This document shows positions 8,053 to 26,472 of a stretch of 35,996 bases of DNA, in pieces. Every line of letters begins with the position of its first letter. Positions within the stretch are counted from its first letter, which is position 1. Source of the stretch: an uncultured bacterium (GTDB taxonomy: Bacteria > Chloroflexota > Limnocylindria > Limnocylindrales > Limnocylindraceae); NCBI GenBank assembly GCA_963923845.1, contig CAWULR010000003.1, forward strand, positions 1-35,996. Reading direction: 5' to 3'. Below the pieces are notes generated by a model that worked only from the letters and a program-made list of their open reading frames with translations, ran no database searches and had not been told where the DNA came from. The translations under genes and the position numbers were made by a program.

Positions 8053-8056
8053 TAGG

Positions 8057-8091
8057 GAGAGCCGCCGCCCCTTTCGGGTGCGACGGCTCTC
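8057..8091 (-). terminator. Stable hairpin downstream of ino1 (terminator-like, no U-tract)
   Basis: Minus-strand GAGAGCCGUCGCACCC-GAAA-GGGGCGGCGGCUCUC: about 15-bp stem with a GNRA tetraloop. Confidence 0.55.
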
Positions 8092-8137
8092 GTGTGCTCG
8101 AAGGCGGAGCCCGCGGTCGACCGCGGGGCTCGAACGG

Positions 8138-9355: not shown

Positions 9356-9455
9356 GTTGCGTACCCCCTTGTTGCTACCGTTCTTCTGCGACGCCGACGA
9401 TCGGCCCCGCCTTCACCAGCCGCCGGCAACGCCGACGGCGAGCATCAAACAGCCG

Positions 9456-10648: not shown

Positions 10649-12094
10649 CTAGCCTGCGATCGCCTTCGTCACCGCCTCGATCAAGCTCCCGGGCAGGAGG
10701 CCGAGGGCGAGCGTCCCGACTGCGGCGATGAAGAGCCCCGCCCGCAACAACGGTGCGGTCGCCACCTGAACGTCGGCAGCGCCTGGGTCGCGCATGAAGA
10801 GGTAGACGATGACGCGCAGGTAGTAGAAGGCGGCAACGGCGGCGTTGAGCACGGCGACGATCGCAAGCACGCTTGCGATCCCGCCCGCCTGGACCGCGCT
10901 GAGGATCACATACGCCTTGGCGAAGAAGCCGGCCGTCGGCGGGATTCCGGTGAGGCTCAGCAGGAAGAGTGCGGCGAGCAGCGCCGTCAGCGGATGCTTG
11001 CGGCCGAGACCGGCGAGGTCGGCGAGCTGCACGGTGGCGCCGGGTCGGCCCTGTACCGACGTGAGGAAGGCAAAGGCGCCGATGTTCATCAACGCGTACG
11101 CGGCGGAGTAGAAGAGCACGCCCGAGACGCCGGCGGATTCGCCAGCACCCGCTGCGACGACGCCGACCATGAGATACCCGGTGTGGGCGATCGAAGAGTA
11201 GGCGAGCATGCGCTTGACGTTCGACTGCGTCAGCGCGACGAGGTTTCCGAGCGTCATCGTCGCCGTTGCGAGGACGGCGACGACCGGAATCCATGTCCCG
11301 GCGAGCGGAGCGAGCGCGATCAGGAAGGTCTTGATCATCAAGACGAACGCGCCGATCTTCGGGCCGACAGAGAGGTAGCCGGTGATCGGCGTCGGCGAAC
11401 CCTGGTACGCATCGGGTGTCCAGTAGTGGAAGGGCACCGCCGCGATCTTGAACGCGACGCCCGTCGTCATCAGCGCAAGCCCCATCGCGATCGCCGGCTT
11501 GATCCCGGTGCCGCCTGCGGCAAGTGCCGATGCGACGCCCGCGAGCGACGCGGTTCCCGTCGCGCCCCAGAGCAACACGATCCCGAAGAGCAGGATCGCG
11601 CTCGAAAAGCTTCCGAGCAGGAAGTACTTGACGGCACCCTCGGTGCTCAACGGATCGCGCTTCGCGTATCCGGCGAGGAGGTATCCCGGAATCACCATCA
11701 ACTCGAGTCCGATGAAGAGCGTCACGAGATCGCCCGACGCACCGACCATGATCGCGCCGCAGAGGGCGAAGAGGAGCGTTGCGGCAAACTCGGCGCTCGG
11801 GTATCGCCGCGCTGCAAGGTGATCTGGCGAAACCAGCAGCGTGAGCGCGACCACGGCCGAACCGAGGAGGCCGAGATACGCGACGAACGGTCCGCCGATG
11901 TATGCGCCGCTGAGTGCCGTCTCCACCGTGTCGCCCTGCTGCAGCAGGATCCAACAGGTCGAGCCGAGGCCCGCGAGCGCAACGGCGATCGGCGCATAGC
12001 GGCGGCTCGGAGTCAGGGCATCGCTCAGCAGCACCGCGACCGCGGTGAGCCCGACGACGACGAGCGGTGCGATCGTGATCAGGTCGCCGCTCAT
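10649..12094 (-). CDS. nuoN: NADH-quinone oxidoreductase subunit N
   Basis: LFIGLEL, EGAVKYFLLG, FKIAAVPFHYWTPDAYQG, KRMLAYSSIAHTGY. Confidence 0.97.
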   Translation of the reverse strand: MSGDLITIAPLVVVGLTAVAVLLSDALTPSRRYAPIAVALAGLGSTCWILLQQGDTVETALSGAYIGGPFVAYLGLLGSAVVALTLLVSPDHLAARRYPSAEFAATLLFALCGAIMVGASGDLVTLFIGLELMVIPGYLLAGYAKRDPLSTEGAVKYFLLGSFSSAILLFGIVLLWGATGTASLAGVASALAAGGTGIKPAIAMGLALMTTGVAFKIAAVPFHYWTPDAYQGSPTPITGYLSVGPKIGAFVLMIKTFLIALAPLAGTWIPVVAVLATATMTLGNLVALTQSNVKRMLAYSSIAHTGYLMVGVVAAGAGESAGVSGVLFYSAAYALMNIGAFAFLTSVQGRPGATVQLADLAGLGRKHPLTALLAALFLLSLTGIPPTAGFFAKAYVILSAVQAGGIASVLAIVAVLNAAVAAFYYLRVIVYLFMRDPGAADVQVATAPLLRAGLFIAAVGTLALGLLPGSLIEAVTKAIAG

Positions 12095-13623
12095 CGGATG
12101 GCTCCTCCCGAGGCAAACATGAGGAACTGGGCCACGCTCGCGGCTACGGCGTTGGTGAGCAGCGACGGGAGGATCCCGAAGGCCACGATCATCGCGGCAA
12201 GCGGGGCAAGCGTGGCGATCTCGATCGCGGTGATGTCGGTGAGATGCGTGCCGAGGCCCTTCAGGAAGGGCGAAAGCGGTCCCATGAAGATGCGCTGGTA
12301 CATCCAGAGCAGGTAGACCGCAGCGAGGACCATCACCAGCGTCGCCGCCCCGGCCACCACCGGATTGGCGAGGAAGGCGCCGAGCAGCACGAGGAACTCC
12401 CCGACGAAGCCCGAGAGGCCGGGAAGCCCGACCGAGGCGAAGAGGAAGAAGCCGAAGAGCGCGGCATAGACGGGCGTGCGCGACGCCCAGCCGCCCATCT
12501 TCGCGATCTCACGGTCGTGCGTCCGTTCGTAGCCGATCCCGACCAAGAGGAAGAGTCCGCTCGTGATCAGGCCGTGGTTGAGCATCTGGAGGATCGCTCC
12601 GTCGACTCCCTGCTGGTTGAAGGAGAAGATGCCGAGCGTGACGAAGCCCATGTGGCTGACCGAGCTGTAGGCGATCAGCTTCTTCAAGTCGGTCTGCACG
12701 ATCGCCACGATCGCCCCGTAGATGATGGCGATCACCGAGAGCGCGATGAGAAGCGGGGCGAAGTCGTGCGCCGCCTGCGGGTAGAGCGGGATCGCGAAGC
12801 GGATAAACCCGTAGCCGCCGAGCTTCAACAGCACCCCGGCGAGGATCACGGAGCCCGCGGTCGGCGCCTGCACGTGCGCGTCGGGGAGCCAGGTGTGGAA
12901 CGGGAACATCGGCACCTTGATCGCAAAGGCGAGCGCGAACGCGGCGAAGGCAACGGCCTGGAGCGTCGGGTCGGCGACGGTGCCGCGCAGGGTCAAGAGA
13001 TCGAAGGCCCCGTCCCATGAGCCGGTGGCGACCTGGTGGCTGAACGCCGTCGCAAGGATCGCCACGAGCATGAGCAGCGATCCGACCAGCGTGTAGAGGA
13101 CGAACTTGATCGTGGCGTAGATGCGCTCGGCGCCGCCCCAGATGCCGATGATCAGGTACATCGGAACCAAGACGATCTCCCAGAAGATGTAGAAGAGGAA
13201 GAGGTCGAGCGAGAGGAAGACGCCGAGCATCCCGGTCTCCAAGATGAGGAAGCTGATGTAGTACTCCTTCACGCGGTTCTGGATCGGTCCGAAGCTTGCG
13301 AGGATGCAGATCCAGCTGAGCAGCGTCGTGAGGACGACCAACGCACCGGAGAGTCCGTCGACGCCGAGGTGGTAGGTGATGCCGAAGCTTGGGATCCAGG
13401 AGAGTTGTTCGCTGTACGCGAACTCGGACGAGAAGGTGCGGATCCCCGGAAGCATCAGCAGGCTGAGGACGAAGGTTGCAAACGAGACGAGGAGCGCCGC
13501 GCCGCGGATCAGCGCCGGTCGCGAAGACGGCACGACGCCGAGAAGCAGCGCGCCGGCGAACGGCAAGAGCGTGATGAGCGAGAGGATCGGCAGGCCCGCC
13601 ACCAGCTGCGTCACGTCGCTCAC
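12091..13623 (-). CDS. nuoM: NADH-quinone oxidoreductase subunit M
   Basis: LFLFYIFWE, AIKVPMFPFHTWLPDAHVQAPT, LLKLGGYG, KKLIAYSSVSHMG. GTG at 13623 is coupled to the nuoL stop. Confidence 0.97.
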   Translation of the reverse strand: MSDVTQLVAGLPILSLITLLPFAGALLLGVVPSSRPALIRGAALLVSFATFVLSLLMLPGIRTFSSEFAYSEQLSWIPSFGITYHLGVDGLSGALVVLTTLLSWICILASFGPIQNRVKEYYISFLILETGMLGVFLSLDLFLFYIFWEIVLVPMYLIIGIWGGAERIYATIKFVLYTLVGSLLMLVAILATAFSHQVATGSWDGAFDLLTLRGTVADPTLQAVAFAAFALAFAIKVPMFPFHTWLPDAHVQAPTAGSVILAGVLLKLGGYGFIRFAIPLYPQAAHDFAPLLIALSVIAIIYGAIVAIVQTDLKKLIAYSSVSHMGFVTLGIFSFNQQGVDGAILQMLNHGLITSGLFLLVGIGYERTHDREIAKMGGWASRTPVYAALFGFFLFASVGLPGLSGFVGEFLVLLGAFLANPVVAGAATLVMVLAAVYLLWMYQRIFMGPLSPFLKGLGTHLTDITAIEIATLAPLAAMIVAFGILPSLLTNAVAASVAQFLMFASGGAIR

Positions 13624-15554
13624 GCTCCGATCACCAGGTAGGCGATCGCCATCACGGCGAGGCCGACGGCGATGCCGAACGCGTAGTTCTGCACGCGTCC
13701 GGTCTGGATCTGGCGCAGGCCGCGCCCGCCGCTCGACGCAAGGGCACCGACGCCGTTGACGGCGCCGTCCACGACGCGACGATCGAACCACCAGGCGGCG
13801 TTGGCGACACGCGAACCGAGGCGAACGAAGATCAGGTCGTTCAGGTCGTCGAAGAACCAGCGATTGCGGCTTCCCGTATAGAGCGGCTGGAGGCGCGCGG
13901 TGATCGCGCGGATGCGATCGCCGTTGTCGCTGCGGAAGAGGCGAACGCCGACCACCGTGCCGATCGACGCCACCGTGACGCTCGCGAGCATCAACAGGCC
14001 GTCGATGCCGAAGAGCGTCCACGCTTCGTGTTCGTGCTCGAGGAGGACATTCGCCGTATGGAAGATCGGCTCGAGCCCGTGAACCAAGATGCCGTCGGCG
14101 AAGGGGAGGCCGAGCAGCGCGCCGATACCGACCGACGGGACCGCCAACAGCAGCAGCGGCAGCGTCATCGTCCAGGGCGATTCGTGCACGTGGACGCTCT
14201 CGCTGACGCGGCTGGTCCCCCAGAAGGTGAGGCCCATCAGGCGGAACATGTAGAAGGCGGTCGCGCCGGCGACCACCATCCCGACCAGCCAGACCCAGAC
14301 GTAGCCGAACTTGAACGCCTCGCCGAGGATCTCGTCCTTGGACCAGAAGCCCGCGAGCGGCGGAAGCCCTGCGATCGCGATCGTGCCGATGAGCATCGTG
14401 GCGTAGGTGATGGGAATCTTCTTGGCGAGACCGCCCATCTTCGGCATCTCCTGTTCGCCTTCGACCGCGTGGATGACGGAACCCGATCCGAGGAAGAGCA
14501 GGCCCTTGAAGAAGCCGTGCGTGATCAGGTGGAAGATCGCCGGCACCCACGCACCGACGCCGAGTGCGGCGAACATGTAGCCGAGCTGCGAGAGCGTCGA
14601 GAAGGCGAGGACGCGCTTGATGTCGGTCTGCGTGAACGCGATCGATGCGGCGAAGATCGCCGTGAAGATGCCGATCGCGGCGACGACGAGCATCGCCTCG
14701 TGGCTCGCAGCGAAGAGCGGGCTCATCCTCGCGACGAGATACACGCCGGCGTTGACCATGGTCGCAGCGTGGATGAGCGCGGAGACCGGCGTCGGTCCCT
14801 CCATTGCGTCGGGGAGCCAAACGTGGAGCGGGAACTGCGCCGACTTGCCGACCGCGCCGCAGAAGACGAGGAGGGCGATGAGGGTGGCGGCCGGCCCGGC
14901 GAGCTGCCCAGCGGCCACGCCCTCCAGGATCGTCTGGATGTCCAAGGTGCCGAAGACGGCGACGAGGCCCATCAGGCCGAGGGCGAAGCCGACATCGCCG
15001 ACGCGATTGGTGACGAAGGCCTTCTTCGCCGCAAGGCCCGGCTCGCGCTTCGTGTACCAGAATCCGATCAAGAGATACGAGGAGAGCCCGACGAGCTCCC
15101 ATGCCGCGAAGACGACGAGGAGGTTGCTGGCGAGCACGAGGAGGAGCATCGAGAACATGAAGAGGTTGAGGTAGGCGAAGAATCGCCAGTATCCGGGATC
15201 GTGGCTCATGTAGCCGACGCTGTAGAGGTGCACGAGTGCGCCGACGGTGGTGACGACCAGCAAGAGCGCGCCGGTGAGCGCATCGACGTGGATCCCGATG
15301 TCGAAGCTGAGGCTTCCGGACGCCACCCAGGTGAAGAGCGACGTTGTCGCGCCGTGCTCTCCGAAGTCTCCGAGGAGCGCCGGGATCGCCACGCTCATCG
15401 CGATCCCCCATGTGGCGAAGATCGCGGCGAGTGGAACGAGGTGTGCGGCGCCACCGAGCCGGCGACCGATCGCAGCCGTGAAGGCGAAGCCCACCAGCGG
15501 CAGGATCAACAGGAGCGGCGCGTACCCTGGGAGCAGCAGCTCGTCCACGCTCAC
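13620..15554 (-). CDS. nuoL: NADH-quinone oxidoreductase subunit L
   Basis: WELVGLSSYLLIGFW, KAFVTNRVGD, GKSAQFPLHVWLPDAMEGPTPVSALIHAATMV, C-terminal QTGRVQNY. GTG at 15554 is coupled to the nuoK stop. Confidence 0.97.
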   Translation of the reverse strand: MSVDELLLPGYAPLLLILPLVGFAFTAAIGRRLGGAAHLVPLAAIFATWGIAMSVAIPALLGDFGEHGATTSLFTWVASGSLSFDIGIHVDALTGALLLVVTTVGALVHLYSVGYMSHDPGYWRFFAYLNLFMFSMLLLVLASNLLVVFAAWELVGLSSYLLIGFWYTKREPGLAAKKAFVTNRVGDVGFALGLMGLVAVFGTLDIQTILEGVAAGQLAGPAATLIALLVFCGAVGKSAQFPLHVWLPDAMEGPTPVSALIHAATMVNAGVYLVARMSPLFAASHEAMLVVAAIGIFTAIFAASIAFTQTDIKRVLAFSTLSQLGYMFAALGVGAWVPAIFHLITHGFFKGLLFLGSGSVIHAVEGEQEMPKMGGLAKKIPITYATMLIGTIAIAGLPPLAGFWSKDEILGEAFKFGYVWVWLVGMVVAGATAFYMFRLMGLTFWGTSRVSESVHVHESPWTMTLPLLLLAVPSVGIGALLGLPFADGILVHGLEPIFHTANVLLEHEHEAWTLFGIDGLLMLASVTVASIGTVVGVRLFRSDNGDRIRAITARLQPLYTGSRNRWFFDDLNDLIFVRLGSRVANAAWWFDRRVVDGAVNGVGALASSGGRGLRQIQTGRVQNYAFGIAVGLAVMAIAYLVIGA

Positions 15555-15871
15555 TGCCTCATCGTGTCGTACTCGTCGACCAGCGGTGTCTTCCTGTTTC
15601 TGTAGATGGCGATGACGATGGCGAGCCCGACCGTCGCCTCGGCGGCAGCGACGGCGACGATGAGCAGGGCGAAGGCGATCCCCTCGCCGGCGAGTGCCGG
15701 AATGAACGCGCCGAACGCGACGGCCGAGAGGTTCACCGCGTTCAGCATCAGCTCGATGCTCATCAGCATGCTGATCGCATTGCGGCGGGCCAGGAAGCCG
15801 AAGGCGCCGATGGAGAAGAGCAGCCCGGCCAGGACCAGGTACGGCTCCAGGTGACCGGCGATCTGGCTCAC
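15551..15871 (-). CDS. nuoK: NADH-quinone oxidoreductase subunit K
   Basis: RRNAISMLMSIELMLNAVNL and AAAEATVGLAI. Confidence 0.97.
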   Translation of the reverse strand: MSQIAGHLEPYLVLAGLLFSIGAFGFLARRNAISMLMSIELMLNAVNLSAVAFGAFIPALAGEGIAFALLIVAVAAAEATVGLAIVIAIYRNRKTPLVDEYDTMRQ

Positions 15872-16440
15872 CCCGCCTCCTCGTCCCCGTCGAGGCTGGG
15901 CTGGTCCGCGCGGCGAGCAGAGGCAAGGTAGATCCCGCCGATCACGGCGGCGAGGATGAGGACGCTGACCACCTCGAAGGCGAGAAGGTACGGGCCGAAG
16001 AGCTCGGCGGCGGCACCGGTCGTCCCCTGCGCTGCGGGCGTGTCATCGAACGTCGTCGACGACCAGTCGTTGGCGCCGAGCGTGATCGCGAAGATGATCG
16101 AGAGCAGCGCCGCGATCGCAGCCGCCGGGAGCGCCTGCGTCTGGAAGGTGAGCCTCGTCGGTGCCGCCTTCGACTGCGTCAGCATGATCGCGAAGAGGAT
16201 CAGCACGCTGATCGCTCCGATGTAGACGAGCACCTGGGCGCCCGCGAGGATCGCCGCGCCGAGCATCACGTAGATCCCCGCCAACGCGCCGAGCGCGAGG
16301 ATCAGCATCAGGCCGTTGCGGATGATGTCGCGGCCGAGCACCACGCCGAGCGCCGCAGCCACCGTGACGCCGCCGAGCGCGACGAAGAGTGCGTCCGCCC
16401 ACGTGATGCCGATGAACGGGAGCGTGTCGGGCAGCGGCAT
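15868..16440 (-). CDS. nuoJ: NADH-quinone oxidoreductase subunit J
   Basis: AQVLVYIGAISVLILFAIML and YLLAFEVVSVLILAAVIG. Confidence 0.95.
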   Translation of the reverse strand: MPLPDTLPFIGITWADALFVALGGVTVAAALGVVLGRDIIRNGLMLILALGALAGIYVMLGAAILAGAQVLVYIGAISVLILFAIMLTQSKAAPTRLTFQTQALPAAAIAALLSIIFAITLGANDWSSTTFDDTPAAQGTTGAAAELFGPYLLAFEVVSVLILAAVIGGIYLASARRADQPSLDGDEEAG

Positions 16441-16443
16441 GGA

Positions 16444-18999
16444 CTACTTCCCGCGCAGGTTCGACGGCAGGACCGGAAGCGCCCGCGCAGGATCGTGGCG
16501 TCGCCCGGCGACGGTGTTCTCCCAGTTGCTCTCGCCGCGGATGAACGTAGCCTCCGAGGTGCGCTCGATCTTCGCGAGTGCGATCAAGTCGATCATCGGC
16601 TCGCTGCGATCCGTGTGCGCGAGTTCGAAATCGAAGCCGCTGCGAAGCGCGTCGTACGGACATGCGTCGACGCAGATGCCGCAGAGGATGCAGCGCGACT
16701 CGTCGACTTCGTACTTGGTGAGGATGCGCGGCTTCGGCATGAGTGCGCCGGTCGGGCACGTCTCTGCGCATCGCCCGCACGAGACGCACGGCGACTCGTT
16801 GAGGCTCATGTCGAGCGGCGTGGTGACGAGCGTGTCGAATCCGGTGCGCATGAAGTCGTAGCAGGCGGCGCCCACGACCTCGGCGCAGACGTTGGCGCAG
16901 CGGCCGCAGTCGATGCATCGCGATGGCTCGCGCAGGATGAAGGCGTGCGAATCGTCGCGCACGTAGTCGTGGTTTGCGCCCGTCCAGCGGTTCTCCGTGA
17001 TCGAGCGGAAGCCGGCACCGTGGCGATGCTCCTTCTCGAGGCTCTTCAGCGTGGTGCCGTACTCGATGCCGAGTCGGCGCAGGTCGCAGAAGCCGATCGC
17101 CTCGCAGGTGCACTGGAGGCAGCGCGTGCTCTCCGCCATCGCCTCTGACTTGCTGTAGGGGATCTCGTACTGGATGTAGTCGTGCTTCCGCTCGTCGGCG
17201 TGGAGCGCCTTGAGTCGGAGCCGCGGCTCTTTCGTCTCGCCGGTGAACGGCACGATGCTGAGGAACTCGGGCTGCGGCTCGGCCAGTGTCTGGCGCGTGC
17301 GGATCTCGCCGAGATCGAGCCCCTTCAGATAGGCGTCGGCGGCGTAGGCGCAGCGACGACCGTCGGCGATCGAGGCGACGACGGTCGTGGCGCCGTTGCG
17401 CACGTCGCCACAGCCGAAGACGCCGTCGCGGCCGGTCTGGAAGGTGACGGCGTCCGCCTTCAGTCGACCGTTCTTCGTGGCGCTCACCCCGTCGGCGCCG
17501 ACGCTCGCCCAGGTCATGTCCGGCCCCTGACCGATCGCCTTGAGGATGCGGTCGCACTCGATGATGAACTCCGTCCCCGGAGCCGGCTCGGGTCGGCGCC
17601 GACCCGATGCGTCTGGCGCGCCGAGCTGCATGCGGATGAACTCGAGGCCCTTGACGCGGTTCTTCTCGTCCACGATGACGCGCGTCGGACCCGCCTGGAA
17701 GATGGCGCGGGCCCCCTCCTCGATCATCTCGTGCACTTCGTCCGCGGCCGGCATGTCCTTCATGTCGCGTCGGTAGACGAGCGTCACCTCCTTTGCGCCG
17801 AGGCGGATGCTCGTGCGCGAGCAGTCCATCGAGGTGTAGCCGCCGCCGACCACCACCACGCGGCTCCCTTCGTGGTTCGGATACTCGAGGCCGAGCGCGG
17901 CGGTGTGCAGATAGTCGAGGCCGTCGATCACCCCTTCGGCGTCTTCGCCCGGGATGCCGAGATCGTTCGTGTCGTAGCAGCCGATCGCCACGATCACCGC
18001 GTCGTAGCCCTGCGCCTTGAGGTCGGCGGTGGTGAAGTCGCGCCCGAGCATCTTGCCGCACTCGAATCGGCCGCCGAGTCGCGTGATCGACTGGTACTCG
18101 CCGTCGAGCACCTCGATCTTCGGCAGGCGGTACTGCGGGATTCCGTACCGGAGCATGCCGCCTGGCTCCGGATCCTTCTCGAAGATCGTGACGTCATGGC
18201 CGGCAACCAAGAGGTAGTAGGCGGCGGATGCACCGGCGGGACCCGAACCGATCACGGCGACGCGCTTCCCGGTCTTCGGCTGCAGCTCGAACGGAAGCGG
18301 CGGATCGATGTTCTCGTCCCACATCGCCTTCAGCACCTGATCGCCGGCGTAGCGGTGGCTGTCGCGGATCGCGATCGCTTCGTCCACTTCGTCGCGGCGG
18401 CAGTGGTCCTCGCACGGCGCCGGGCAGACGCGTCCGAGGATGCTCGGGAACGGAATCGTGCGCTTGAAGATGCGCGCCGACTCGCGGAACTGCGATTCGG
18501 CGTTCGCCTTCAAGAAGCCCGGAATGTCGATGTGGCTCGGGCACTTGTTCTGGCAGGGCGGCAGGCAGTAGGCGTTGTGGTCGCTGAAGATCAGCTCCAG
18601 GTTGGTGCGACGGATCTCGCGCAGCCGATCGGTCTGCGTCGCGATCACCGTCTCCGGCTCCGCCTTCGCAGAGCAGCTGATCAACGGCGCGTCGCACCCC
18701 TCGACGTCGACGACGCACATGCGGCAGGCGCCGAACCCCGGCAGCTTCGGGTCGTAGCAGAGCGTCGGCACCTCGATGCCGTTCGCGCGGCAGACCTCGA
18801 GGATCGTCTGTCCTTCGAACGCCTCGAGTCGGTTTCCGTCGATCTCAACGTAGAACGTCGGGGTGCGCTGCGGTCGCTGAGGGCTGCGCGTCGAGAGGAG
18901 TCGTTCGAGCGCCTGGCTCTCCAGTGCCTGGTTCTCGCTCGCGGCTGCGTGCTCGCTCGGCGCAAGGTTGCCGCTCGGTCGCTCCATCAGGCCGGCCAT
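16444..18999 (-). CDS. Chimeric Fe-S flavoprotein: NuoG-type N-terminal Fe-S module, GltD/NfnB-like FAD-NAD(P)H domain, 2x[4Fe-4S], and C-terminal half of NuoI
   Basis: [2Fe-2S] IEVPTLC...GACRMC...C; GltD motifs PPCQNKCP, LGRVCPAPCE, GSGPAG, GGMLRYGIP, GGGYTSMD, VYRR; RCIDCGRCANVC and CVSCGRCAETCPTGAL; NuoI-like tail YEVDESRCILCGICVDACPYDAL..GFDFELA. Confidence 0.9.
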   Translation of the reverse strand: MAGLMERPSGNLAPSEHAAASENQALESQALERLLSTRSPQRPQRTPTFYVEIDGNRLEAFEGQTILEVCRANGIEVPTLCYDPKLPGFGACRMCVVDVEGCDAPLISCSAKAEPETVIATQTDRLREIRRTNLELIFSDHNAYCLPPCQNKCPSHIDIPGFLKANAESQFRESARIFKRTIPFPSILGRVCPAPCEDHCRRDEVDEAIAIRDSHRYAGDQVLKAMWDENIDPPLPFELQPKTGKRVAVIGSGPAGASAAYYLLVAGHDVTIFEKDPEPGGMLRYGIPQYRLPKIEVLDGEYQSITRLGGRFECGKMLGRDFTTADLKAQGYDAVIVAIGCYDTNDLGIPGEDAEGVIDGLDYLHTAALGLEYPNHEGSRVVVVGGGYTSMDCSRTSIRLGAKEVTLVYRRDMKDMPAADEVHEMIEEGARAIFQAGPTRVIVDEKNRVKGLEFIRMQLGAPDASGRRRPEPAPGTEFIIECDRILKAIGQGPDMTWASVGADGVSATKNGRLKADAVTFQTGRDGVFGCGDVRNGATTVVASIADGRRCAYAADAYLKGLDLGEIRTRQTLAEPQPEFLSIVPFTGETKEPRLRLKALHADERKHDYIQYEIPYSKSEAMAESTRCLQCTCEAIGFCDLRRLGIEYGTTLKSLEKEHRHGAGFRSITENRWTGANHDYVRDDSHAFILREPSRCIDCGRCANVCAEVVGAACYDFMRTGFDTLVTTPLDMSLNESPCVSCGRCAETCPTGALMPKPRILTKYEVDESRCILCGICVDACPYDALRSGFDFELAHTDRSEPMIDLIALAKIERTSEATFIRGESNWENTVAGRRHDPARALPVLPSNLRGK

Positions 19000-20264
19000 T
19001 ATTTGCTCCGTCCCGCTACTGCACCGCTCGTTTCAGCGGCGACTCCGGTTGGCACGAACTCTCGCTCGAAGTATCGCATCCCCGTCAGGAGCGGGCTCGG
19101 TGTCAATCGCTCGTGCGCGCAGAGCGCGCTGTCGGCGACATCGGCGGCGAGTGCATGGAGCCTCTGCACATCGTTCGGGCCGGCGAGCCCGTCGACGAAG
19201 CGTTGTCCGATCTCGGCGAGGCGGCGAGTGCCGATACGGCACGGGATCGTCTTCCCGCACGCTTCGTCGGCGCACCATCGGGTCAACAGCGCAGCAAGCT
19301 CCGGGATGGCGGTGCCCTGGTCGACGGCGAGGAGGGCGCCCGAGCCGATATGGGCACCGACGGCGGCCAGGCCGCGGCCGCTGTAGGGCGTGCTCGCCAG
19401 CAGGTTCGCGGGGACGAAACCGCCAGACGGCCCACCGACGAGCAGCGCCTTGATCGTGGCGCCCTTCGTGGGGCCACCCGCTGCGGCGACGATCTCGGCG
19501 AGCGTCGTGCCGGTCGGAACCTCCATCACGCCGACGCTGGCGAGCGGACCGCCGACCTGCACGAGTGCGGTGCCGGGCTCCGCCGGGTCGCCGATCTCCG
19601 CGAATGCGCGGGCTCCGTTGCCGACGATCCACGTCACCGCTGCGAGCGTCGCCACGTTGTTGACGGCGGTCGGCTTCCCCAGATACCCGACGGTCGATGG
19701 ATACGGTGGTGTCTGTTCAGGTTGACCCCGTCGACCGGCAAGCGCCTTGAGCAGCACCGTCTCCTCGCCGATCATGCTCGAGCCCTGCAACGGCCGCACG
19801 CTCATCGTCAGCTCTCGGCCGCTCCCGAGCAGATCGGAGCCGAACACGCCGTCTCGCTCGGCGCCCTGGATGATCGCCTCGAGGCGACGGATCGCGTCCG
19901 TGTACTCCGCACGCACCGCGATGAAGGCGTGGCGCGCACCGACGGCGAGCGCAGCGATCGCGAGGCCCTCGACGACCGCCTGCGCGTTCTTCTCGAGAAG
20001 GAGTCGGTTCGTGAACGCGGCGGGGTCCGACTCGTACCCGTTGGCAACGGCGTATCGCTCGTCGGCGTCGCTCGCGGCGGTGATCCGCCACTTCTCGCCG
20101 GTGAGGAATCCGCCGCCGCCCTTGCCGCGCAGGCCCGCGTCGATGAGCGTCTGGAGCGTCGACACAGATCCGGCGGAGATGGCGCTGCGCAGCGCCGCCC
20201 ACGGCGTCGCCGGCGGCGACATGAGCAGCTGCGACCAGCCTTTCGGTGCGGCGATCAACTTCAT
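18999..20264 (-). CDS. nuoF: NuoF-like flavoprotein subunit with degenerate motifs
   Basis: GLRGKGGGGFLTGEKW, GEETVLL, PPYP...GKPTAVNNVAT, GGPSGG, EACGKTIPCRIG. ATG at 20264 overlaps the upstream TGA; its TAA overlaps the next ATG. Confidence 0.88.
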   Translation of the reverse strand: MKLIAAPKGWSQLLMSPPATPWAALRSAISAGSVSTLQTLIDAGLRGKGGGGFLTGEKWRITAASDADERYAVANGYESDPAAFTNRLLLEKNAQAVVEGLAIAALAVGARHAFIAVRAEYTDAIRRLEAIIQGAERDGVFGSDLLGSGRELTMSVRPLQGSSMIGEETVLLKALAGRRGQPEQTPPYPSTVGYLGKPTAVNNVATLAAVTWIVGNGARAFAEIGDPAEPGTALVQVGGPLASVGVMEVPTGTTLAEIVAAAGGPTKGATIKALLVGGPSGGFVPANLLASTPYSGRGLAAVGAHIGSGALLAVDQGTAIPELAALLTRWCADEACGKTIPCRIGTRRLAEIGQRFVDGLAGPNDVQRLHALAADVADSALCAHERLTPSPLLTGMRYFEREFVPTGVAAETSGAVAGRSK

Positions 20265-21082
20265 GCGGCGTATCTCCCCGCAAGCGCCGCCGCCCACGTC
20301 TCGGCGTTGCGACTCGACAGATCGCGTTGCGGTTCTCCGTCGATCACCACGAGCGGCGACGGTGCGTCGGGAAGGTGCGTCGGCAGCGCCTCGAGTCGGA
20401 GGTTGCTCCATGGAATCGCGTGGCCGAACTCGGTGCCGAATTCGTATGAGAGCGTCCCGATCACGCGACCCGCGCCTGCGACCAGGCAGTTGGCGCAGCG
20501 ACACACGGCGATCGAGCGGTTTCGCCCCGGCTCGAAGGTGAGGTGCTTGTAGAAGGTCGCCGTGCCGTAGACCATCGCGTACCAGGCGCCGGTGGCGCGA
20601 CTGATGCGCTTCAGCGCGTCGACGGGGAGATAACCGTACGCGGCCTGCACCGCTTCGAGGATCTGCAGCATGTGGTGCGGGTCGTAGTCGGCGCTCTCCA
20701 GCGCCGCCTCGACGGGACGAAGGTCGATCGCGCTCGCCTGTGACGCGGCCGCGTCGGAGACGGTTCGACCGGAGCGGCGCATCGCAGATTCCTCGCGACG
20801 CTCGGCGTACTGCTCTGCAGGACCCCAGTGCACCGCGTAGCGCCCTTTGGTGTCCGTGCCGCCCATGTCGATGCACTCGATCGGACACGCCTGCGCGCAC
20901 TGGAAACAGGTCTCGCACTTCAGCGTTCCGCGCTCGTCGGTGACGAGCTCGAGTCGACCTCGGTTTCGCGGGGCGATGTCCGGCTTCGCCTCCGGATACA
21001 TCACCGTCTTCTTCGGCTGGAAGAAGCGCGTCAGCGTGAGGCCCATTCCGCGGATGATTCCCGAGCCTGGAATCCGTGCCAT
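20261..21082 (-). CDS. Fusion of the NuoI N-terminal half to a NuoE-like domain
   Basis: NuoI-like GMGLTLTRFFQPKKTVMYPE...RNRGR...KCETCFQCAQACPIECI with only one Cys motif, then NuoE-like LQILEAVQAAYGYLP...VYGTATFY...VCRCANC..AGA. AGGAGG Shine-Dalgarno upstream. Confidence 0.9.
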   Translation of the reverse strand: MARIPGSGIIRGMGLTLTRFFQPKKTVMYPEAKPDIAPRNRGRLELVTDERGTLKCETCFQCAQACPIECIDMGGTDTKGRYAVHWGPAEQYAERREESAMRRSGRTVSDAAASQASAIDLRPVEAALESADYDPHHMLQILEAVQAAYGYLPVDALKRISRATGAWYAMVYGTATFYKHLTFEPGRNRSIAVCRCANCLVAGAGRVIGTLSYEFGTEFGHAIPWSNLRLEALPTHLPDAPSPLVVIDGEPQRDLSSRNAETWAAALAGRYAA

Positions 21083-21091
21083 CGCTCCTCC

Positions 21092-22429
21092 TTATGCGGT
21101 CAGCAGCACGGCGAGCGCCGTGGCGAAGAGGTTGAGCAGCGACGCAGGGAGGAGCCACTTCCAGGCAAAGCCCATCAGCTGGTCGATCCGCGCGCGCGGA
21201 AGGGTGCCGCGCATCCAGACGAAGATGAAGATCAACGTGAACGTCTTCAGGAGGAAGAAGACGAGGTCGGCGACCGGGGGGAGCATCGCCCAGGCCCAGG
21301 CGCCGACGACGGCGGTGGAGAGGGCGCCGAAGATGAGGAAGCCGGCGAGGAGCGCCTGCCAGGCCTTGATACGGGCGCTGATCGCGTAGATCGGGAGGCC
21401 GATCGCCAACGTCCCGAGGATCGGCGCGACGCCGGCGAGGATCGGGAGGAGGATGCCGAGGCTTCCGAGGTCGACGGCGATCTCGGGGTGGAACGGCAGG
21501 TCGATCGGCGCATTGGAGCCGCCCAGGAAGAGCGCGGAGAAGAGCGCCGAGACGATGAAGACGTTGACGTACTCGGCGAAGAAGAAGAAGCCGAAGCGCA
21601 TCCCGGAGTACTCGGTCGCAAACCCGGCGACGATCTCCTGGTCCGCCTCCGTGTTGTCGAACGGCGTGCGATTCGCCTCTGCGGTGATCGCGATGAAGAA
21701 GATGATCGCGGCGAGCGGCTGGCGGAAGATGAACCAGTCGAGCAGCGATCCACCCTGCGCCTCGACGATCTTCGGCAGCGACAGCGTGCCGGTGAGGATG
21801 ATGATGCCGACGACCGACAGCGTCAGCGGAATCTCGTAGCTGATCGCCTGCGCCGCGGCGCGAATCCCGCCGAGGAGCGAGTACTTGTTGAACGACGACC
21901 AGCCGGCCATCATCAGGCCCACCACGCCGAGGCCGCCGATCGCAAAGAAGTAGAGCAGCCCGAACTCGAGACCGGCGCTCGTGAGATCGGGGGCGAACGG
22001 GATCACCATCACCGTCATGAAGCTCGCGAGATAGACGACGACCGGCGCGAGCGTGAAGACCGGAACGTCGACGCTCGGCGGCGTGAAGTCCTCTTTCATC
22101 AGCACCTTGAGGCCGTGGACGACGCTCATCACGGCGCCGGCGGGACCGATGCGGTCCGGTCCGATGCGCAGGTTCATCAACGCGATGATCTTCATCTCCA
22201 TGTAGATCAGCAGGAACGCGACGGGAACCGTCACCAAGAAGGTGATCACGGACGCAGCAAGGAAGCGGACGATCGGCAGGTTTGCGGCGATCGTCGCGCC
22301 GATGAACGGTCCTGCGACGATCAAGAGTGCGGTCAGCGCCGCGCCGCCGATCGACAGGATCGGCAACAGGATGGCGAGCGCCCGCCCGCCCGGCGTCAGC
22401 CGCGACCAGACCGCCTGCGCGCCGCTCAC
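21092..22429 (-). CDS. nuoH: NADH-quinone oxidoreductase subunit H (enlarged)
   Basis: RIGPDR, KED, NKYSLLGGIRAAAQAISYE, AEANRTPFD, TEYSG, WMRGTLPRARIDQLM. GTG at 22429 is coupled to the nuoD stop. Confidence 0.96.
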   Translation of the reverse strand: MSGAQAVWSRLTPGGRALAILLPILSIGGAALTALLIVAGPFIGATIAANLPIVRFLAASVITFLVTVPVAFLLIYMEMKIIALMNLRIGPDRIGPAGAVMSVVHGLKVLMKEDFTPPSVDVPVFTLAPVVVYLASFMTVMVIPFAPDLTSAGLEFGLLYFFAIGGLGVVGLMMAGWSSFNKYSLLGGIRAAAQAISYEIPLTLSVVGIIILTGTLSLPKIVEAQGGSLLDWFIFRQPLAAIIFFIAITAEANRTPFDNTEADQEIVAGFATEYSGMRFGFFFFAEYVNVFIVSALFSALFLGGSNAPIDLPFHPEIAVDLGSLGILLPILAGVAPILGTLAIGLPIYAISARIKAWQALLAGFLIFGALSTAVVGAWAWAMLPPVADLVFFLLKTFTLIFIFVWMRGTLPRARIDQLMGFAWKWLLPASLLNLFATALAVLLTA

Positions 22430-23642: not shown

Positions 23643-24194
23643 CTACGCCCCTGCGCTCTTCCTGACCACGGTCGCGTGCGTGGCGTCTGCCGGCGTGCCG
23701 ACACGCTCCATGTTGCGCACGCCCGCTGCAGGCGATCGCGAAGCATCGTCGGCGAGGTGGAAGTCCTTTCGAAGCGGATGGCTGACGTAGTCGTCCGGCA
23801 TGTAGATGCGACGTAGATCGCGATTCCCCTCGAAGACGATCCCGAACATGTCGTACGCCTCGCGCTCCATCCACTCGGCGCCGGGCCAGAGCGAGACGAG
23901 CGAGTTCACGCGCGGTGCGTTGCGATCGACGCCGGCAACGATCACCCGCAACCAGTCGCTGCTCGAGAACGATGCGAGATGGTAGACGATCTGCATCTCC
24001 TCGCCGGTGTCCACGCCGCAGAGATCCATCAGGATCTCGAATGCGAATCGCGGCTCGTCGTGCAGCGCGCGGAGCACGGGGATCGCATCGGCGATGCCGA
24101 CGCGGATCTCCGTCTCGTCGAAGCGTTGGCGCACCGGCGCACGGAGGGTCTCGCCGAATCGGTCGTGCAGCGCGGCGGCGAGGGCGCGATCCAT
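23643..24194 (-). CDS. nuoC: NADH-quinone oxidoreductase subunit C
   Basis: DLCGVD and WMEREAYDMFGIVFEGNRDLRRIYMPDDYVSHPLRKDF. ATG at 24194 overlaps the nuoB TGA. Confidence 0.96.
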   Translation of the reverse strand: MDRALAAALHDRFGETLRAPVRQRFDETEIRVGIADAIPVLRALHDEPRFAFEILMDLCGVDTGEEMQIVYHLASFSSSDWLRVIVAGVDRNAPRVNSLVSLWPGAEWMEREAYDMFGIVFEGNRDLRRIYMPDDYVSHPLRKDFHLADDASRSPAAGVRNMERVGTPADATHATVVRKSAGA

Positions 24195-24865
24195 CAGATG
24201 CCGTCCGGAACCGTCGGTCCGATGGCCCGCTCGGGCCAGTGGCCGCGACGATCCTTGATGAGCTGTTGCAGCTTCATCATTCCGTAGATGAGTCCCTCGG
24301 GCCGCGGCGGACAGCCGGGGATGTAGACGTCGACCGGCATGACGCGGTCGATCCCCTGCACCACCGAATAGCTGCGCTTGTAGCGACCGCCGGAACAGGT
24401 GCAGTCGCCCATCGCAACAAGCCACTTCGGTTCTGGCATCTGCTCCCAGAGTCGGATCAGCGGTTCCGCCATCTTGGTTGTGAGCGTTCCGGCGACGATC
24501 AGCACATCTGCCTGTCGCGGCGATGCGCGGAACGGGAACATCCCCCACCGGTCGATGTCGTTCTTCGGTGTCGCGGTCGACATCATCTCGATCGCGCAGC
24601 AGGCGAGTCCGGAGAGGAGCGGCCAGAGACTGTTGGCGCGAATCAGATCCAGGACGATGTCGGCGGTGGTGGGGATTGCGCCGAGCGCGCCGCTCCAGCG
24701 CGCGTCGTCGACGCGTCCGTCGCCGGTCGCGTCATAGCGCGCCAGCTCCAAGTTCGGATGCTGCGCGAGGGGGATGCCGCCGTACGCTCGCGGATCGTCG
24801 GTCGTCCAGAGCGTGTTCTTCGCCACGATCGGCGCCTGGAGCGCGCGCTTCGGATCGCGCGTCAT
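24194..24865 (-). CDS. nuoB: NADH-quinone oxidoreductase subunit B
   Basis: [39 protein letters not shown] at 24865 overlaps the nuoA TGA. Confidence 0.97.
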
Positions 24866-25218
24866 CGCCACGAGAGCACCCCTTTGCGCCAGGCGTAGCC
24901 GAGGCCGACGAGCAGGACGCCGATGAAGATCGCCATGGAGACCAGCCCCTCGACCAGGAGGGCCTGGAAGTTGAGTGCCCAGATGTAGATGAAGACGATC
25001 TCGACGTCGAAGGCGACGAAGAGGAGGGCATAGAGATAGAAGGAGAGGCCGAAGCGCCCGTGGGTGTCGCCGTAGGTGTCGATGCCCGACTCGTAGGGGA
25101 CCTGCTTGCCGCGGCTCCCTCGCGTGCGGTGGGAGATCAACCAGGCGATGCCGATCGTCAGGAAGACGAAGGAGACACCCGCGCCGGCGAAGCCGAGGAC
25201 GTACCAGAGTCCGTTCAT
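24862..25218 (-). CDS. nuoA: NADH-quinone oxidoreductase subunit A
   Basis: [35 protein letters not shown] Shine-Dalgarno. Confidence 0.97.
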
Positions 25219-25287: not shown

Positions 25288-25293
25288 ATTCTA
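25288..25293 (-). promoter_or_regulatory. Candidate -10 element for the nuo operon
   Basis: Minus-strand TAGAAT overlapping the TAG stop of the upstream methyltransferase, about 70 nt before the nuoA ATG. Confidence 0.45.
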
Positions 25294-26472
25294 GACGAGG
25301 GGGCGGTTCGGAGCCGCTGCGCCGGGGAGCGGATTGGCACGATCGGCGATACGCCGTCGCCGCTCGGGAGCACCGCTGGCGAAGAGTTCGACGGCGAAAC
25401 CTCCCATGCCACGTGGATTCATCAGGTGGGCGAGGGCCGACCGCAGGGCGATCGCCCCTTCGAGCGTCGCGTCGGGCCCGCGCCGCACGCGGTCGAGTTC
25501 GCTCTCCAGCCCGGCCCCCGCGATGAACGCCGCCTGGTTCGTCTGGGCCACCGGCTCGAGTCCGGCCGCAGCTGCGGCGCGGCGCAGCGCGGTGAGGTCC
25601 ACATGGGCGGTGAGGTCGCGCTCACCGGGTTCGCTCAGCAGGTCCGCCGTCGCTCGATGACCCTGATAGGCGAGCGCTGTCCCCGCCATCCGGCTCCTCG
25701 CATCGCGGAGCAGCGCGCCATCGCGTCCGTAGTCGATCACCACCACCAGACCGTCGCTCACCCGTGTCGTCACCTCGCGGAACCACGGCTCGATGGCGAA
25801 GCAGGCCTCCGCCAGCTGTCCCTCGGCGAGTGGCGCACCGAAGCGATCGAGGACGCGGCGCGCGCGATCCGAATCGAGTGCTCGTTCGACCCAGATTCGC
25901 GTCGTGCGGTCGTCGGCGAGACCGACGCACCGCTCGGCGAGTCCCGACGGTGCGCCGCTTCGTCCCACGAAGATGTCGAACGGAAGCGCATCGAGGTACT
26001 CGTTGGCGATGACGATGCCCGCGACCGGCGGCGCGCCGTCGGCGACGAGCGACGGCGAACCGCGCTCCTGCACTCTGCCGACGGCGCTGCGCAGCTCGTC
26101 GCTGCGGTGCGCGTTGACGTCGATCGGCTGGATCTCGAGCGCGTCGACGAGCGGCGATCGGTCGCGCCGCAGCTGCGCGATCACCGCGAGCACGAGTGCA
26201 CCGGATCCGGCGCCATACTCGACCCAGCGAAACCGTCGAGGTTCGCCGAGCCGGCGCCACACCTCGGTCGCCAGGCGCGAGAGCGCAGAGCCGAGCAGCG
26301 TGTGCAGCTCGGGCGCCGTGATGAAATCGCCCTCCCGACCTGCGCGCACCTGACGCGTGACGTAGTAGCCGAGACCGGGTTCGGTGAGCGCGCGCTCCAT
26401 GAATCGGGAGAACGAGATCGCTCCGCGCTCCGCGATCTCTGCGTCGATGCGCGCCTCGAGTTCGCTGCTCAT
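25291..26472 (-). CDS. SAM-dependent methyltransferase, MidA/NDUFAF7 family
   Basis: [66 protein letters not shown]. Confidence 0.93.

What the first reader, a model, noticed from the sequence alone, without database searches (positions are those of the whole stretch)
16740..18999. NuoG replaced by a NuoG/GltD (StnC/NfnB/SfrB-like) flavoprotein: candidate NADPH-fed complex I
Seen: an intact GltD-type FAD site (VAVIGSGPAG, GGMLRYGIP) and pyridine-nucleotide site GGGYTSMD...VYRR inside a NuoG-type Fe-S scaffold. The large C-terminal molybdopterin-like domain of NuoG is absent. Known: the GGGxTAxD...YRR pattern is typical of NADPH-using GltD/NfnB/SfrB, and NuoG-GltD hybrids paired with NuoE/F-like subunits form soluble transhydrogenases such as Sporomusa Stn. 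Inference: here such a module is hard-wired to a proton-pumping membrane arm, giving an NADPH:quinone oxidoreductase or reverse-electron-transport NADP+ reduction.
Basis: partly seen in the sequence, partly recalled or inferred. Interest (0 to 1): 0.85.

Follow-up and report, generated by a model that had tools for sequence, protein, structure and literature searches.

The report
Complex I with built-in NADPH module
The only respiratory complex I of this freshwater bacterium has an NADPH-binding flavoprotein module spliced into the middle of its NuoI subunit, so respiration here may be fed by NADPH as well as, or instead of, NADH.

Summary
ORF 16444-18999 (-), 851 aa, is a StnC/NfnA-type hybrid: a NuoG-type [2Fe-2S] start, a GltD-type FAD/NADPH domain and Fe-S motifs, with no molybdopterin-like domain.

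nuoI is split.
- Its N-half is fused to the NuoE-like protein (20261-21082).

A three-gene Nfn/Stn-like cassette therefore sits inside nuoI, in the order nuoABCDH-[I_N::E]-[F]-[G::GltD::I_C]-JKLMN.

No intact NuoI, NuoG or second NuoF was found in this genome or in two 91-93% complete congeners. The fused I_N::E protein occurs in 145 of 151 genomes sampled from the class (Limnocylindria). The same operon occurs in Thermoleophilia.

In Limnocylindria the hybrid keeps 89-94% of reference-invariant positions and the NADPH motif. The NuoE-like part has lost its cluster cysteines. The NuoF-like part lacks one N3 cysteine and its C-terminal clusters.

Best reading (0.6): a non-bifurcating, proton-pumping NAD(P)H:quinone oxidoreductase with NADPH entering at FAD. 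All evidence is genomic. I judge it a new variant of a known kind.

The parts
16444..18999 (-). Hybrid subunit P0001 (851 aa): NuoG-type N-terminus, then GltD-type FAD/NADPH domain, then Fe-S motifs, then NuoI C-terminal half
   Evidence: All cysteine motifs are invariant in 15 orthologues.
18631..18849 (-). [2Fe-2S] domain of the hybrid (res 51-123; C81, C92, C95, C109)
   Evidence: Pfam Fer2_4. The cysteines are invariant.
17320..18567 (-). GltD-like part (res 145-560): two [4Fe-4S] motifs (C145/C149/C153, C192/C196/C200, His215), FAD site, and NADPH site GGGYTSMD...VYRR
16753..17124 (-). Fe-S motifs shared with StnC/NfnA: CxxCxCxxxxxC (res 627-638), CIDCGRCANVC (695-705), CVSCGRCAETCP (738-749)
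16588..16728 (-). NuoI C-terminal half (res 758-804, CILCGICVDACP...DFELAH). It matches positions 71-117 of the 121-position NuoI model.
20261..21082 (-). P0002 (273 aa): NuoI N-terminal half fused to a NuoE-like domain that lacks the second cysteine pair of its [2Fe-2S] site
20840..21058 (-). NuoI N-terminal half (res 9-81; TVMYPE, RNRGRL, CETCFQCAQACP). It matches NuoI model positions 1-66.
18999..20264 (-). NuoF-like subunit (421 aa): N3/B1 motif ACGKTIPC (second Cys replaced by Thr), altered FMN-contact positions, no C-terminal 2x[4Fe-4S] domain
21092..22420 (-). nuoH (start approximate), with an insertion of about 80 residues
22426..23650 (-). nuoD (start approximate). HPSTHG and CYTD motifs are present.
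23643..24190 (-). nuoC (start approximate)
24194..24871 (-). nuoB. N2 cysteines are present ([21 protein letters not shown]).
24862..25218 (-). nuoA
15868..16440 (-). nuoJ
15551..15871 (-). nuoK
13620..15554 (-). nuoL (start approximate)
12091..13618 (-). nuoM (start approximate)
10649..12094 (-). nuoN

Best explanation
This is the electron-input part of the organism's only complex I.

Anatomy: an ancestral three-subunit Nfn/Stn-type (BfuABC-like) flavoprotein module was inserted into nuoI. The NuoI N-half is now the head of the NuoE-like subunit, and the NuoI C-half is the tail of the NuoG-GltD hybrid. I infer that the two halves rebuild the NuoI two-cluster ferredoxin (N6a/N6b). That would tie the module to NuoB/NuoD and the proton-pumping membrane arm.

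Proposed path (inferred): NADPH gives a hydride to FAD in the GltD-like domain. Single electrons then run through the two GltD-type [4Fe-4S] clusters and the NuoG-type clusters. They pass out through the branch that is a dead end in soluble NfnABC (cluster A4), into the rebuilt NuoI clusters, then N2, then quinone.

In Limnocylindria the NuoE/NuoF-like pair has lost the cofactors needed for electron bifurcation. The enzyme is therefore a plain NAD(P)H:quinone oxidoreductase. NADH oxidation at the altered NuoF-like site may persist as a second entry.

Shown: gene anatomy, the split, conservation and motif states. Inferred: assembly, electron path and donor specificity.
For: 1. Split NuoI. NuoI model TIGR01971 matches positions 1-66 in P0002 and 71-117 in P0001, and nothing else in the genome reaches the cut-off. 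P0002 res 1-100 hits 35 solved chains at E <= 0.01. About 34 of these are NuoI/TYKY-type subunits (complex I or chloroplast NDH), matched in their N-half, for example Nqo9 res 6-72. The exception is a succinate dehydrogenase subunit B (E 0.0017). P0001 res 752-851 matches NuoI C-halves, for example Nqo9 res 87-128.

2. Sole complex I. There is no NuoG over cut-off. Only the split NuoI and one NuoF-like gene occur in G004 and G022, which are 93% and 91% complete.

3. Conservation.
- The gene order is the same in 5 of 5 loci from two families and in 4 more from the class.
- The full-length hybrid occurs in 41 of 41 genomes of the order.
- The fused I_N::E protein occurs in 145 of 151 class genomes. 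Without the five unpublished genomes, all of which match, this is 140 of 146.
- The same operon occurs in Thermoleophilia MAGs (L054-L093).

4. The NADPH/FAD site and all cluster ligands of the hybrid are invariant in 15 orthologues. The NADPH motif is kept in 11 of 11 Limnocylindria sequences. It aligns with that of Csac, Sov and Tsib NfnA/StnC, enzymes shown to oxidise NADPH at this FAD (PMC11829005, PMC10482914, PMC9304861; passages).

5. Uneven decay. Against positions invariant in 10 reference sequences, Limnocylindria keep 89-94% of 107 in the hybrid, 43-59% of 181 in the F-like subunit and 26-59% of 34 in the E-like subunit. The [2Fe-2S] second cysteine pair is lost in 11 of 11. The C-terminal 2x[4Fe-4S] is lost in 11 of 11. 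The second N3 cysteine is lost in 9 of 11.

6. The quinone module looks intact.

7. Contigs from RNA libraries of two studies match at 99-100%, including pieces across the nuoH/P0002, P0002/F and hybrid/nuoJ junctions. This is weak evidence, because DNA carry-over is not excluded.
Against: - There is no biochemical or structural evidence of any kind.
- The NuoF-like subunit is retained in genomes streamlined to about 1.1 Mb. It keeps the GxGGxGF and GEET motifs and three of four N3 cysteines, so NADH may still be the main donor.
- No other NADH dehydrogenase was found, but the NDH2_C test is insensitive (0 of 5 genomes; it rings in only 3 of 14 controls).
- The cluster ligand Lys170, reported as strictly conserved in StnC (PMC10482914, passage), is His here. 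Its effect is unknown.
- NADPH specificity is read from a motif, not measured.
- The route A4 to N6a is inferred from the order of motifs in the chain, not from distances.
Confidence: 0.6

Rival explanations
1. NADH stays the main donor. It is oxidised at FMN in the NuoF-like subunit and its electrons pass through a three-cysteine N3 cluster and the [2Fe-2S] cluster into the chain. The GltD-FAD site is a minor second entry, or lets the complex act as an internal NADPH/NADH balancing site.
For: - The F-like gene is the only NuoF-family gene in G004 and G022. It is as conserved as the membrane subunits: 61% identity to family f2, against 60% for nuoH and 59% for nuoN.
- The GLRGxGGxGF and GEET motifs and three N3 cysteines are kept.
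- No NDH-2 was found in 5 genomes (an insensitive test).
Against: - Positions that are invariant in all 10 reference NuoF/BfuB sequences and lie in the flavin-site motifs differ, and they vary among Limnocylindria families: NADE becomes NGYE or NLMA, and NNVET becomes NNVAT, HNVAT or QNAET.
- Only 43-59% of reference-invariant positions are kept.
- The second N3 cysteine is Thr or Ala in 9 of 11 sequences.
Confidence: 0.25
2. The complex runs mainly in reverse or sideways. It would be a pmf-driven NADP+ reductase, or a membrane-tethered transhydrogenase, rather than a respiratory entry point.
For: Its soluble relatives are transhydrogenases (PMC10482914, PMC11829005; passages). Two nicotinamide sites share one Fe-S wire.
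Against: - It is the only complex I in the genome.
- A PntB proton-translocating transhydrogenase gene is present in 5 of 5 genomes, so that role is already filled.
- The bifurcation cofactors are lost.
Confidence: 0.07
3. The three genes encode a separate soluble Nfn-like enzyme that merely sits inside the nuo operon.
For: Gene clusters of the same cassette occur without membrane nuo genes in Limnocylindria family f3 and in the Thermoleophilia Por-type loci.
Against: The membrane complex would then have no NuoI at all. The only NuoI sequence in the genome is the two fused halves. The N-half keeps the NuoI-specific head before the first cluster motif.
Confidence: 0.03
4. Assembly or frameshift artefact in a metagenome-assembled genome.
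For: The genome is a draft of 156 contigs.
Against: The same fused reading frames occur in 41 of 41 order genomes, in 145 of 151 class genomes and in another phylum. RNA-library contigs cross the gene junctions with 0-2 mismatches.
Confidence: 0.01

Closest known systems
StnABC / NfnABC (Nfn-type BfuABC) transhydrogenases of Sporomusa ovata, Caldicellulosiruptor saccharolyticus and Thermococcus sibiricus (PDB 8oh5, 9bov, 9n5u)
   Same: - Three genes in the same order: NuoE-like, NuoF-like, then the NuoG-GltD hybrid.
- The hybrid aligns over res 51-781 with E down to 1.4e-165.
- The FAD and NADPH motifs are shared, as are the two insertion motifs HxxxCxxxCxxxCP and CxxCxCxxxxxC noted by Kremp 2020 (PMC7483475, passage).
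   Different: - No Fdh/molybdopterin-like domain or A5 cluster. A NuoI half stands in its place.
- Lys170 is replaced by His.
- The NuoE-like subunit lacks its [2Fe-2S] cysteines.
- The NuoF-like subunit lacks one B1 cysteine and the B3/B4 domain.
- The genes are embedded in a nuo operon, so the module is not a soluble tetramer and is unlikely to bifurcate.
Predicted 'Nuo-Bfu' complex I of Geobacter, Deferribacteres, Planctomycetes and Nitrospirae (Schut et al. 2022, PMC9304861; passages only, figures and supplements not seen)
   Same: A BfuABC-type module sits in the middle of a nuo operon as the electron-input module of a proton-pumping complex.
   Different: - Nuo-Bfu is described as 14 subunits A-N with BfuABC replacing NuoEFG.
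- The passages read mention no GltD/FAD/NADPH domain and no split NuoI.
- Its proposed donors are NADH plus ferredoxin.
- Here the module is Nfn-type, NuoI is split, and in Limnocylindria the BfuBC core is degenerate.
Canonical 14-subunit complex I (Thermus Nqo, E. coli Nuo)
   Same: Subunits A, B, C, D, H, J, K, L, M and N are all present. The N2 ligands and the NuoD His/Tyr motifs are present.
   Different: - NuoI is in two pieces on two proteins.
- NuoG lacks its C-terminal domain and carries a GltD insert.
- The gene order has H before E.
- The N1a ligands are lost and N3 has three cysteines.
Mbx-like operons of Thermotoga and proteobacteria, in which a gltD-like flavoprotein takes the place of NuoI (Degli Esposti 2015, PMC4758237; passage)
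   Same: A GltD-type NAD(P)H flavoprotein is attached to a complex I-like membrane module at the NuoI position.
   Different: There the flavoprotein is described as substituting for NuoI in an Mrp/Mbx-type complex that reduces NAD(P)+. Here NuoI is kept as two halves, and the partner is a true quinone-reducing Nuo complex with NuoE/F-like subunits.
Thermoleophilia Por-type version of the same cassette
   Same: The same clade of hybrids: 57 split-type rows separate from 8 classic rows with support 100. A ferredoxin is split in the same way around the E-like, F-like and hybrid genes.
   Different: The split ferredoxin belongs to a 2-oxoacid:ferredoxin oxidoreductase. The hybrid ends in a PorB TPP domain, with PorG and PorA upstream. 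The NADPH motif is lost in 3 of 3 sequences examined.

Membership tests
Respiratory complex I (Nuo) | Eleven core subunits A, B, C, D, H, I, J, K, L, M, N in one operon | tested here: met
   All were found by Pfam/NCBIfam. NuoI is present only as two halves on two proteins.
Respiratory complex I (Nuo) | Quinone-module ligands: four N2 cysteines in NuoB, and His and Tyr in NuoD | tested here: met
   [17 protein letters not shown] and GCPP in NuoB; HPSTHG and CYTD in NuoD. Which residues are the ligands is recalled, not taken from a call.
Respiratory complex I (Nuo) | Canonical N-module NuoE/F/G with N1a, FMN/N3 and the NuoG C-terminal domain | tested here: not met
   NuoE-like lacks 2 of 4 cysteines. 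NuoF-like has ACGKTIPC. NuoG model TIGR01973 scores 83 bits against a cut-off of 470 and matches only positions 1-134.
NuoI (TIGR01971) | One polypeptide with two CxxCxxCxxxCP motifs, scoring above the cut-off | tested here: not met
   Model positions 1-66 lie on P0002 (48.7 bits) and 71-117 on P0001 (44.7 bits), against a cut-off of 113. Taken together the halves cover the model.
Stn/NfnABC (Bfu family, bifurcating) | BfuA with a GltD-type FAD/NADPH domain and clusters A1-A4, A6, A7 | tested here: met
   Alignment to 9bov_A and 8oh5_C over res 51-781. The cysteines are invariant.
Stn/NfnABC (Bfu family, bifurcating) | Lys ligand of cluster A7/C7 (K170), said to be strictly conserved in StnC (PMC10482914, passage) | tested here: not met
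   His215 in 15 of 15 orthologues. Lys is present in the two classic sequences.
Stn/NfnABC (Bfu family, bifurcating) | BfuBC core: FMN, B1 with four cysteines, the C-terminal B3/B4 clusters and the C1 [2Fe-2S] | tested here: not met
   In Limnocylindria the C1 cysteine pair is lost in 11 of 11, B3/B4 is absent in 11 of 11, and the second B1 cysteine is lost in 9 of 11. All are intact in 8 of 8 Thermoleophilia sequences examined.
Stn/NfnABC (Bfu family, bifurcating) | NADPH-dependent reduction of NAD+ and ferredoxin | not testable with these tools
   This needs an enzyme assay.
GltD / NfnB(L) / SfrB small-subunit flavoproteins | Fer4_20 two-cluster domain, FAD Rossmann fold and NADPH Rossmann fold with GGGxTAxD...YRR | tested here: met
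   Pfam Fer4_20 and Pyr_redox_2. TIGR01318/01316/01317 match res 146-560 below their cut-offs. The motif is shown. That the YRR pattern marks NADPH use is recalled; it is supported only by identity with NADPH-using StnC/NfnA.

The most novel reading that the evidence does not exclude
A whole class of abundant aerobic bacteria (Limnocylindria) respires through an NADPH-fed, proton-pumping complex I. PntAB would move NADH hydrides into the more reducing NADPH pool, giving extra driving force for a low-potential quinone.

The less reduced Thermoleophilia form, which keeps every bifurcation cofactor, would be a four-substrate complex I. It would couple NADPH, NAD(H), ferredoxin and quinone on one Fe-S wire.

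The shared 'split-ferredoxin' cassette would be a portable plug. It has wired the same flavoprotein module into both complex I and a 2-oxoacid:ferredoxin oxidoreductase.
Probability: 0.3. Interest if true: 0.9.

Novelty: new variant of a known kind. Interest (0 to 1): 0.75.

Why it matters
Complex I is taken to be an NADH enzyme, and the known exceptions change the donor by swapping whole subunits (F420 via FpoF, ferredoxin in NDH-1, flavodoxin in Campylobacter; recalled).

Here a GltD-type NADPH/FAD domain is built into the Fe-S wire, and a core subunit, NuoI, is cut in two to hold the new module. This is the sole complex I of an abundant freshwater and soil class, and a fuller version exists in Thermoleophilia.

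If NADPH is the donor, three things follow:
- It changes how redox balance and energy yield are modelled for these organisms.
- It gives a natural test of whether donor potential limits proton pumping with low-potential quinones.
- It shows how modular Bfu-type units are wired into membrane complexes.

I found no description of it in eight literature searches. Supplements were closed and may hold relevant gene tables.

Tried and rejected
- Complex prediction on P0002 res 1-100 with P0001 res 752-851 and two 4Fe-4S clusters gave no verdict (score 0.25, mark 0.32). It is not used either way.
- The AlphaFold2 model of P0001 from a 15-row alignment had mean pLDDT 61.9, with res 650-851 below 50. 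It was useless for cluster geometry, so no fold search was run.
A 3-row alignment was used instead.
- The NDH2_C family search found nothing in 5 genomes, but it rings in only 3 of 14 control genomes. This is not evidence of absence.
- RNA-library contigs cover only parts of the locus, and uncovered parts mean nothing.
- The 'limnocylindria' + 'nadh dehydrogenase' search found 0 papers. The one paper holding 'limnocylindr' and 'nadh' says nothing on this complex in the passages read. The heliorhodopsin preprint was irrelevant apart from noting an NDUFAF7 gene next to complex I operons.
- Misassembly and 'separate soluble enzyme' were considered and rejected (see the rival explanations).
Full report
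**Observation**

Window 16444-18999 (-) encodes an 851-aa protein, P0001.

Pfam finds four kinds of domain:
- a [2Fe-2S] Fer2_4 domain (res 51-123)
- the two-cluster Fer4_20 domain of GltD/DPD-type enzymes (145-224)
- a Pyr_redox_2 flavoprotein fold (246-547)
- 4Fe-4S motifs (731-786)

The best solved relatives are the large subunits of Nfn/Stn-type transhydrogenases: 9bov_A (E 1.4e-165), 8oh5_C (2.1e-142) and 9n5u_A (8.6e-138). The 1172-1178-aa proteins (9bov_A, 8oh5_C) align only over their first ~700 residues, so their Fdh/molybdopterin-like domain has no counterpart here.

**Surroundings**

The minus strand carries a tight operon, in this order:
- nuoA, nuoB, nuoC, nuoD, nuoH
- P0002 (20261-21082)
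- a NuoF-like gene (18999-20264)
- P0001
- nuoJ, nuoK, nuoL, nuoM, nuoN

By the ORF coordinates, P0002 and the F-like gene overlap in ATGA fashion, and the F-like gene and P0001 overlap by one base.

No separate nuoI exists. The NCBIfam NuoI model (121 positions) matches positions 1-66 at the start of P0002 and positions 71-117 near the end of P0001. Two further searches against solved chains support the split:
- P0002 res 1-100 hits 35 solved chains at E <= 0.01. About 34 are NuoI/TYKY-type subunits of complex I or chloroplast NDH, matched in their N-terminal half (for example Thermus Nqo9 res 6-72 and E. coli NuoI 16-86). One is a succinate dehydrogenase subunit B at E 0.0017.
- P0001 res 752-851 matches NuoI C-terminal halves in single stretches (Nqo9 87-128, E. 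coli NuoI 92-129). It also matches repeat-rich polyferredoxins.

The rest of P0002 (res 107-263) is NuoE/HoxE-like. So nuoI is cut between its two cluster motifs, and an E-like/F-like/NuoG-GltD cassette lies in the cut.

The cysteine motifs add up:
- C695-C705 with C738-C748 form the two-cluster domain also present in StnC/NfnA.
- C770-C780 has no partner motif on P0001. P0002 offers exactly one motif, C56-C66.

**Is it the real complex I?**

In this draft genome (1.02 Mb, 82% complete) no NuoG or NuoI reaches its cut-off. In two congeners that are 93% and 91% complete, the only NuoF-family gene and the only NuoI sequences are those of this operon. NuoB keeps the N2 cysteines. NuoD keeps HPSTHG and a CYTD motif; that these are the ligand positions is recalled.

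**Conservation and spread**

- Full-length orthologues of P0001 (72-97% identity) occur in 41 of 41 genomes of the order.
- The whole gene order is the same in 5 of 5 fetched loci from two families, in 3 loci of a third family and in 1 further locus of family f2.
- The fused I_N::E protein is found in 145 of 151 sampled genomes of the class with at least 85% completeness. That count includes five unpublished genomes, all with a match, so it is 140 of 146 without them.
- Names given by sources to close homologues are Candidatus Limnocylindrales, Limnocylindria or Chloroflexota.
- A scan of species genomes with distant fused I_N::E proteins returned 80 loci. The tblastn map of these loci shows the identical operon order in Thermoleophilia/Actinomycetota MAGs (L054-L093). 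There the hybrid is about 44% identical and aligns through the NuoI C-half.

On a quick maximum-likelihood tree of 65 hybrids, rooted on 8 classic NfnA/StnC rows, the 57 'split' forms are one clade (SH-aLRT 100). Limnocylindria (12 rows) and Thermoleophilia nuo-type (22 rows) join with weak support (80). The outgroup is small and the search was short.

**Cofactor states**

In the hybrid, every cysteine motif is invariant in 15 orthologues. The NADPH motif GGG(F/Y)T..D..RT..R.GA.EVT.VYRR is kept in 11 of 11 Limnocylindria and 4 of 5 Thermoleophilia nuo-type sequences.

The cluster ligand Lys170 of StnC is His in all 15. Lys170 is reported as strictly conserved, and its Ala and Cys variants lose most activity (PMC10482914, passages).

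The Thermoleophilia NuoE-like and NuoF-like subunits keep all features of the bifurcating BfuBC core:
- the four [2Fe-2S] cysteines
- the GAGAFVCGEET and NNVET flavin motifs
- ESCGKCxPC
- the C-terminal 2x[4Fe-4S] domain

In Limnocylindria these features have decayed:
- The second [2Fe-2S] cysteine pair is gone in 11 of 11, and several lineages have lost that half-domain altogether.
- The C-terminal cluster domain is gone in 11 of 11.
- The second N3/B1 cysteine is Thr or Ala in 9 of 11.
- Flavin-site positions differ between families.

Counted over positions invariant in 10 reference sequences, Limnocylindria keep 89-94% of 107 in the hybrid. They keep only 43-59% of 181 in the F-like subunit and 26-59% of 34 in the E-like subunit.

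**Mechanism**

In soluble Csac NfnABC, NADPH reduces the NfnA FAD. Electrons then pass A7-A6-A3-A2-A1 to B1 and FMN, while A4 and A5 form a dead-end branch off A2 (PMC11829005, passages). The FAD is non-bifurcating (PMC10482914, passages).

Here the A5 domain is replaced, about 20 residues after the A4 motif, by the NuoI C-half. I therefore infer the route FAD, A7, A6, A3, A2, A4, rebuilt N6a/N6b, N2, quinone. The former dead end becomes the exit to the membrane arm.

This attachment point is not certain to equal the canonical N5-to-N6a hand-over and needs a structure. With C1 and B3/B4 gone, bifurcation as defined for Bfu enzymes (PMC9304861, PMC11829005; passages) is not expected in Limnocylindria.

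Whether the F-like subunit still oxidises NADH is open:
- For: it is under purifying selection, at 61% identity to family f2, similar to nuoH and nuoN.
- Against: its site is altered.

A PntB gene in 5 of 5 genomes means hydride exchange between the NADH and NADPH pools is available in either case.

**Expression**

Contigs from metatranscriptomic libraries of two studies match the locus at 99-100%. They include pieces across 16335-16623, 20105-20310 and 20708-21141. DNA carry-over cannot be excluded, so this is weak support.

**Comparison with what is known**

- Schut et al. 2022 predict Nuo-Bfu, Mbh-Bfu and Por-Bfu complexes. In the passages I read (figures and supplements not seen), Nuo-Bfu has 14 subunits A-N with BfuABC in place of NuoEFG, and NADH plus ferredoxin as donors. 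No Nfn-type FAD/NADPH subunit or split NuoI is mentioned.
- Degli Esposti 2015 notes Mbx-like operons in which a gltD-like protein substitutes for NuoI.
- Kremp 2020 lists Stn clusters in Firmicutes, Proteobacteria and Synergistetes.
- Eight searches found no description of this arrangement.

I rate it a new variant of a known kind.

**Limits**

- Everything is inferred from sequence.
- The complex prediction gave no verdict.
- The single-chain model was too poor in the Fe-S tail to measure distances.

Noticed in passing
L026-L053, e.g. L034:6744-14938: In Thermoleophilia/Actinomycetota MAGs the same cassette is inserted into the ferredoxin (delta) subunit of a 2-oxoacid:ferredoxin oxidoreductase. 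The order is PorG, PorA, [ferredoxin N-half::NuoE-like], BfuB-like, [NfnA-like::ferredoxin C-half::PorB TPP domain]. The NADPH motif is lost in 3 of 3 sequences examined.
   Followed up: partly
L107:6874-13377 and L109:5623-12019: One Limnocylindria family (f3) has nuoB-nuoD-[I_N::E]-F-hybrid with no membrane nuo genes in the fetched 13-20 kb. Its F-like subunit keeps all four N3 cysteines. It may be a soluble or separately encoded form.
   Followed up: partly
L057:11513-14080: One Thermoleophilia nuo-type hybrid has a degenerate NADPH site (GDGFAAIAA...AVHS) and sits on a long branch of the tree.
   Followed up: no
window 25291-26472 (-): An NDUFAF7-like methyltransferase gene (PF02636, E 3.1e-41) lies directly upstream of nuoA. 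In mitochondria this family methylates the NuoD homologue (recalled). A preprint notes the same neighbourhood in other bacteria.
   Followed up: no
window 21092-22420 (-): NuoH of this genus and its sister family carries a hydrophobic insertion of about 80 residues (query res ~306-385). It has no counterpart in the Thermoleophilia or family f4 tblastn hits.
   Followed up: no
window 4079-10115 (-): Downstream of nuoN lies a phosphatidylinositol/PIM-like gene set: a CDP-alcohol phosphatidyltransferase, inositol-1-phosphate synthase, a lipid A-type acyltransferase, a PHP-domain protein and a GT4 glycosyltransferase. This arrangement is better known from Actinobacteria (recalled).
   Followed up: no
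window 26489-32858 (-): A purH-like gene (AICARFT/IMPCHase) and a very long ORF with protein O-mannosyltransferase (PMT) domains lie upstream of the operon.
   Followed up: no
G000:C2:13031-14410 and G000:C15:10919-12355: The genome also encodes a PntB transhydrogenase subunit and a second, free-standing GltD-like paralogue 36% identical to P0001 res 144-631.
   Followed up: no
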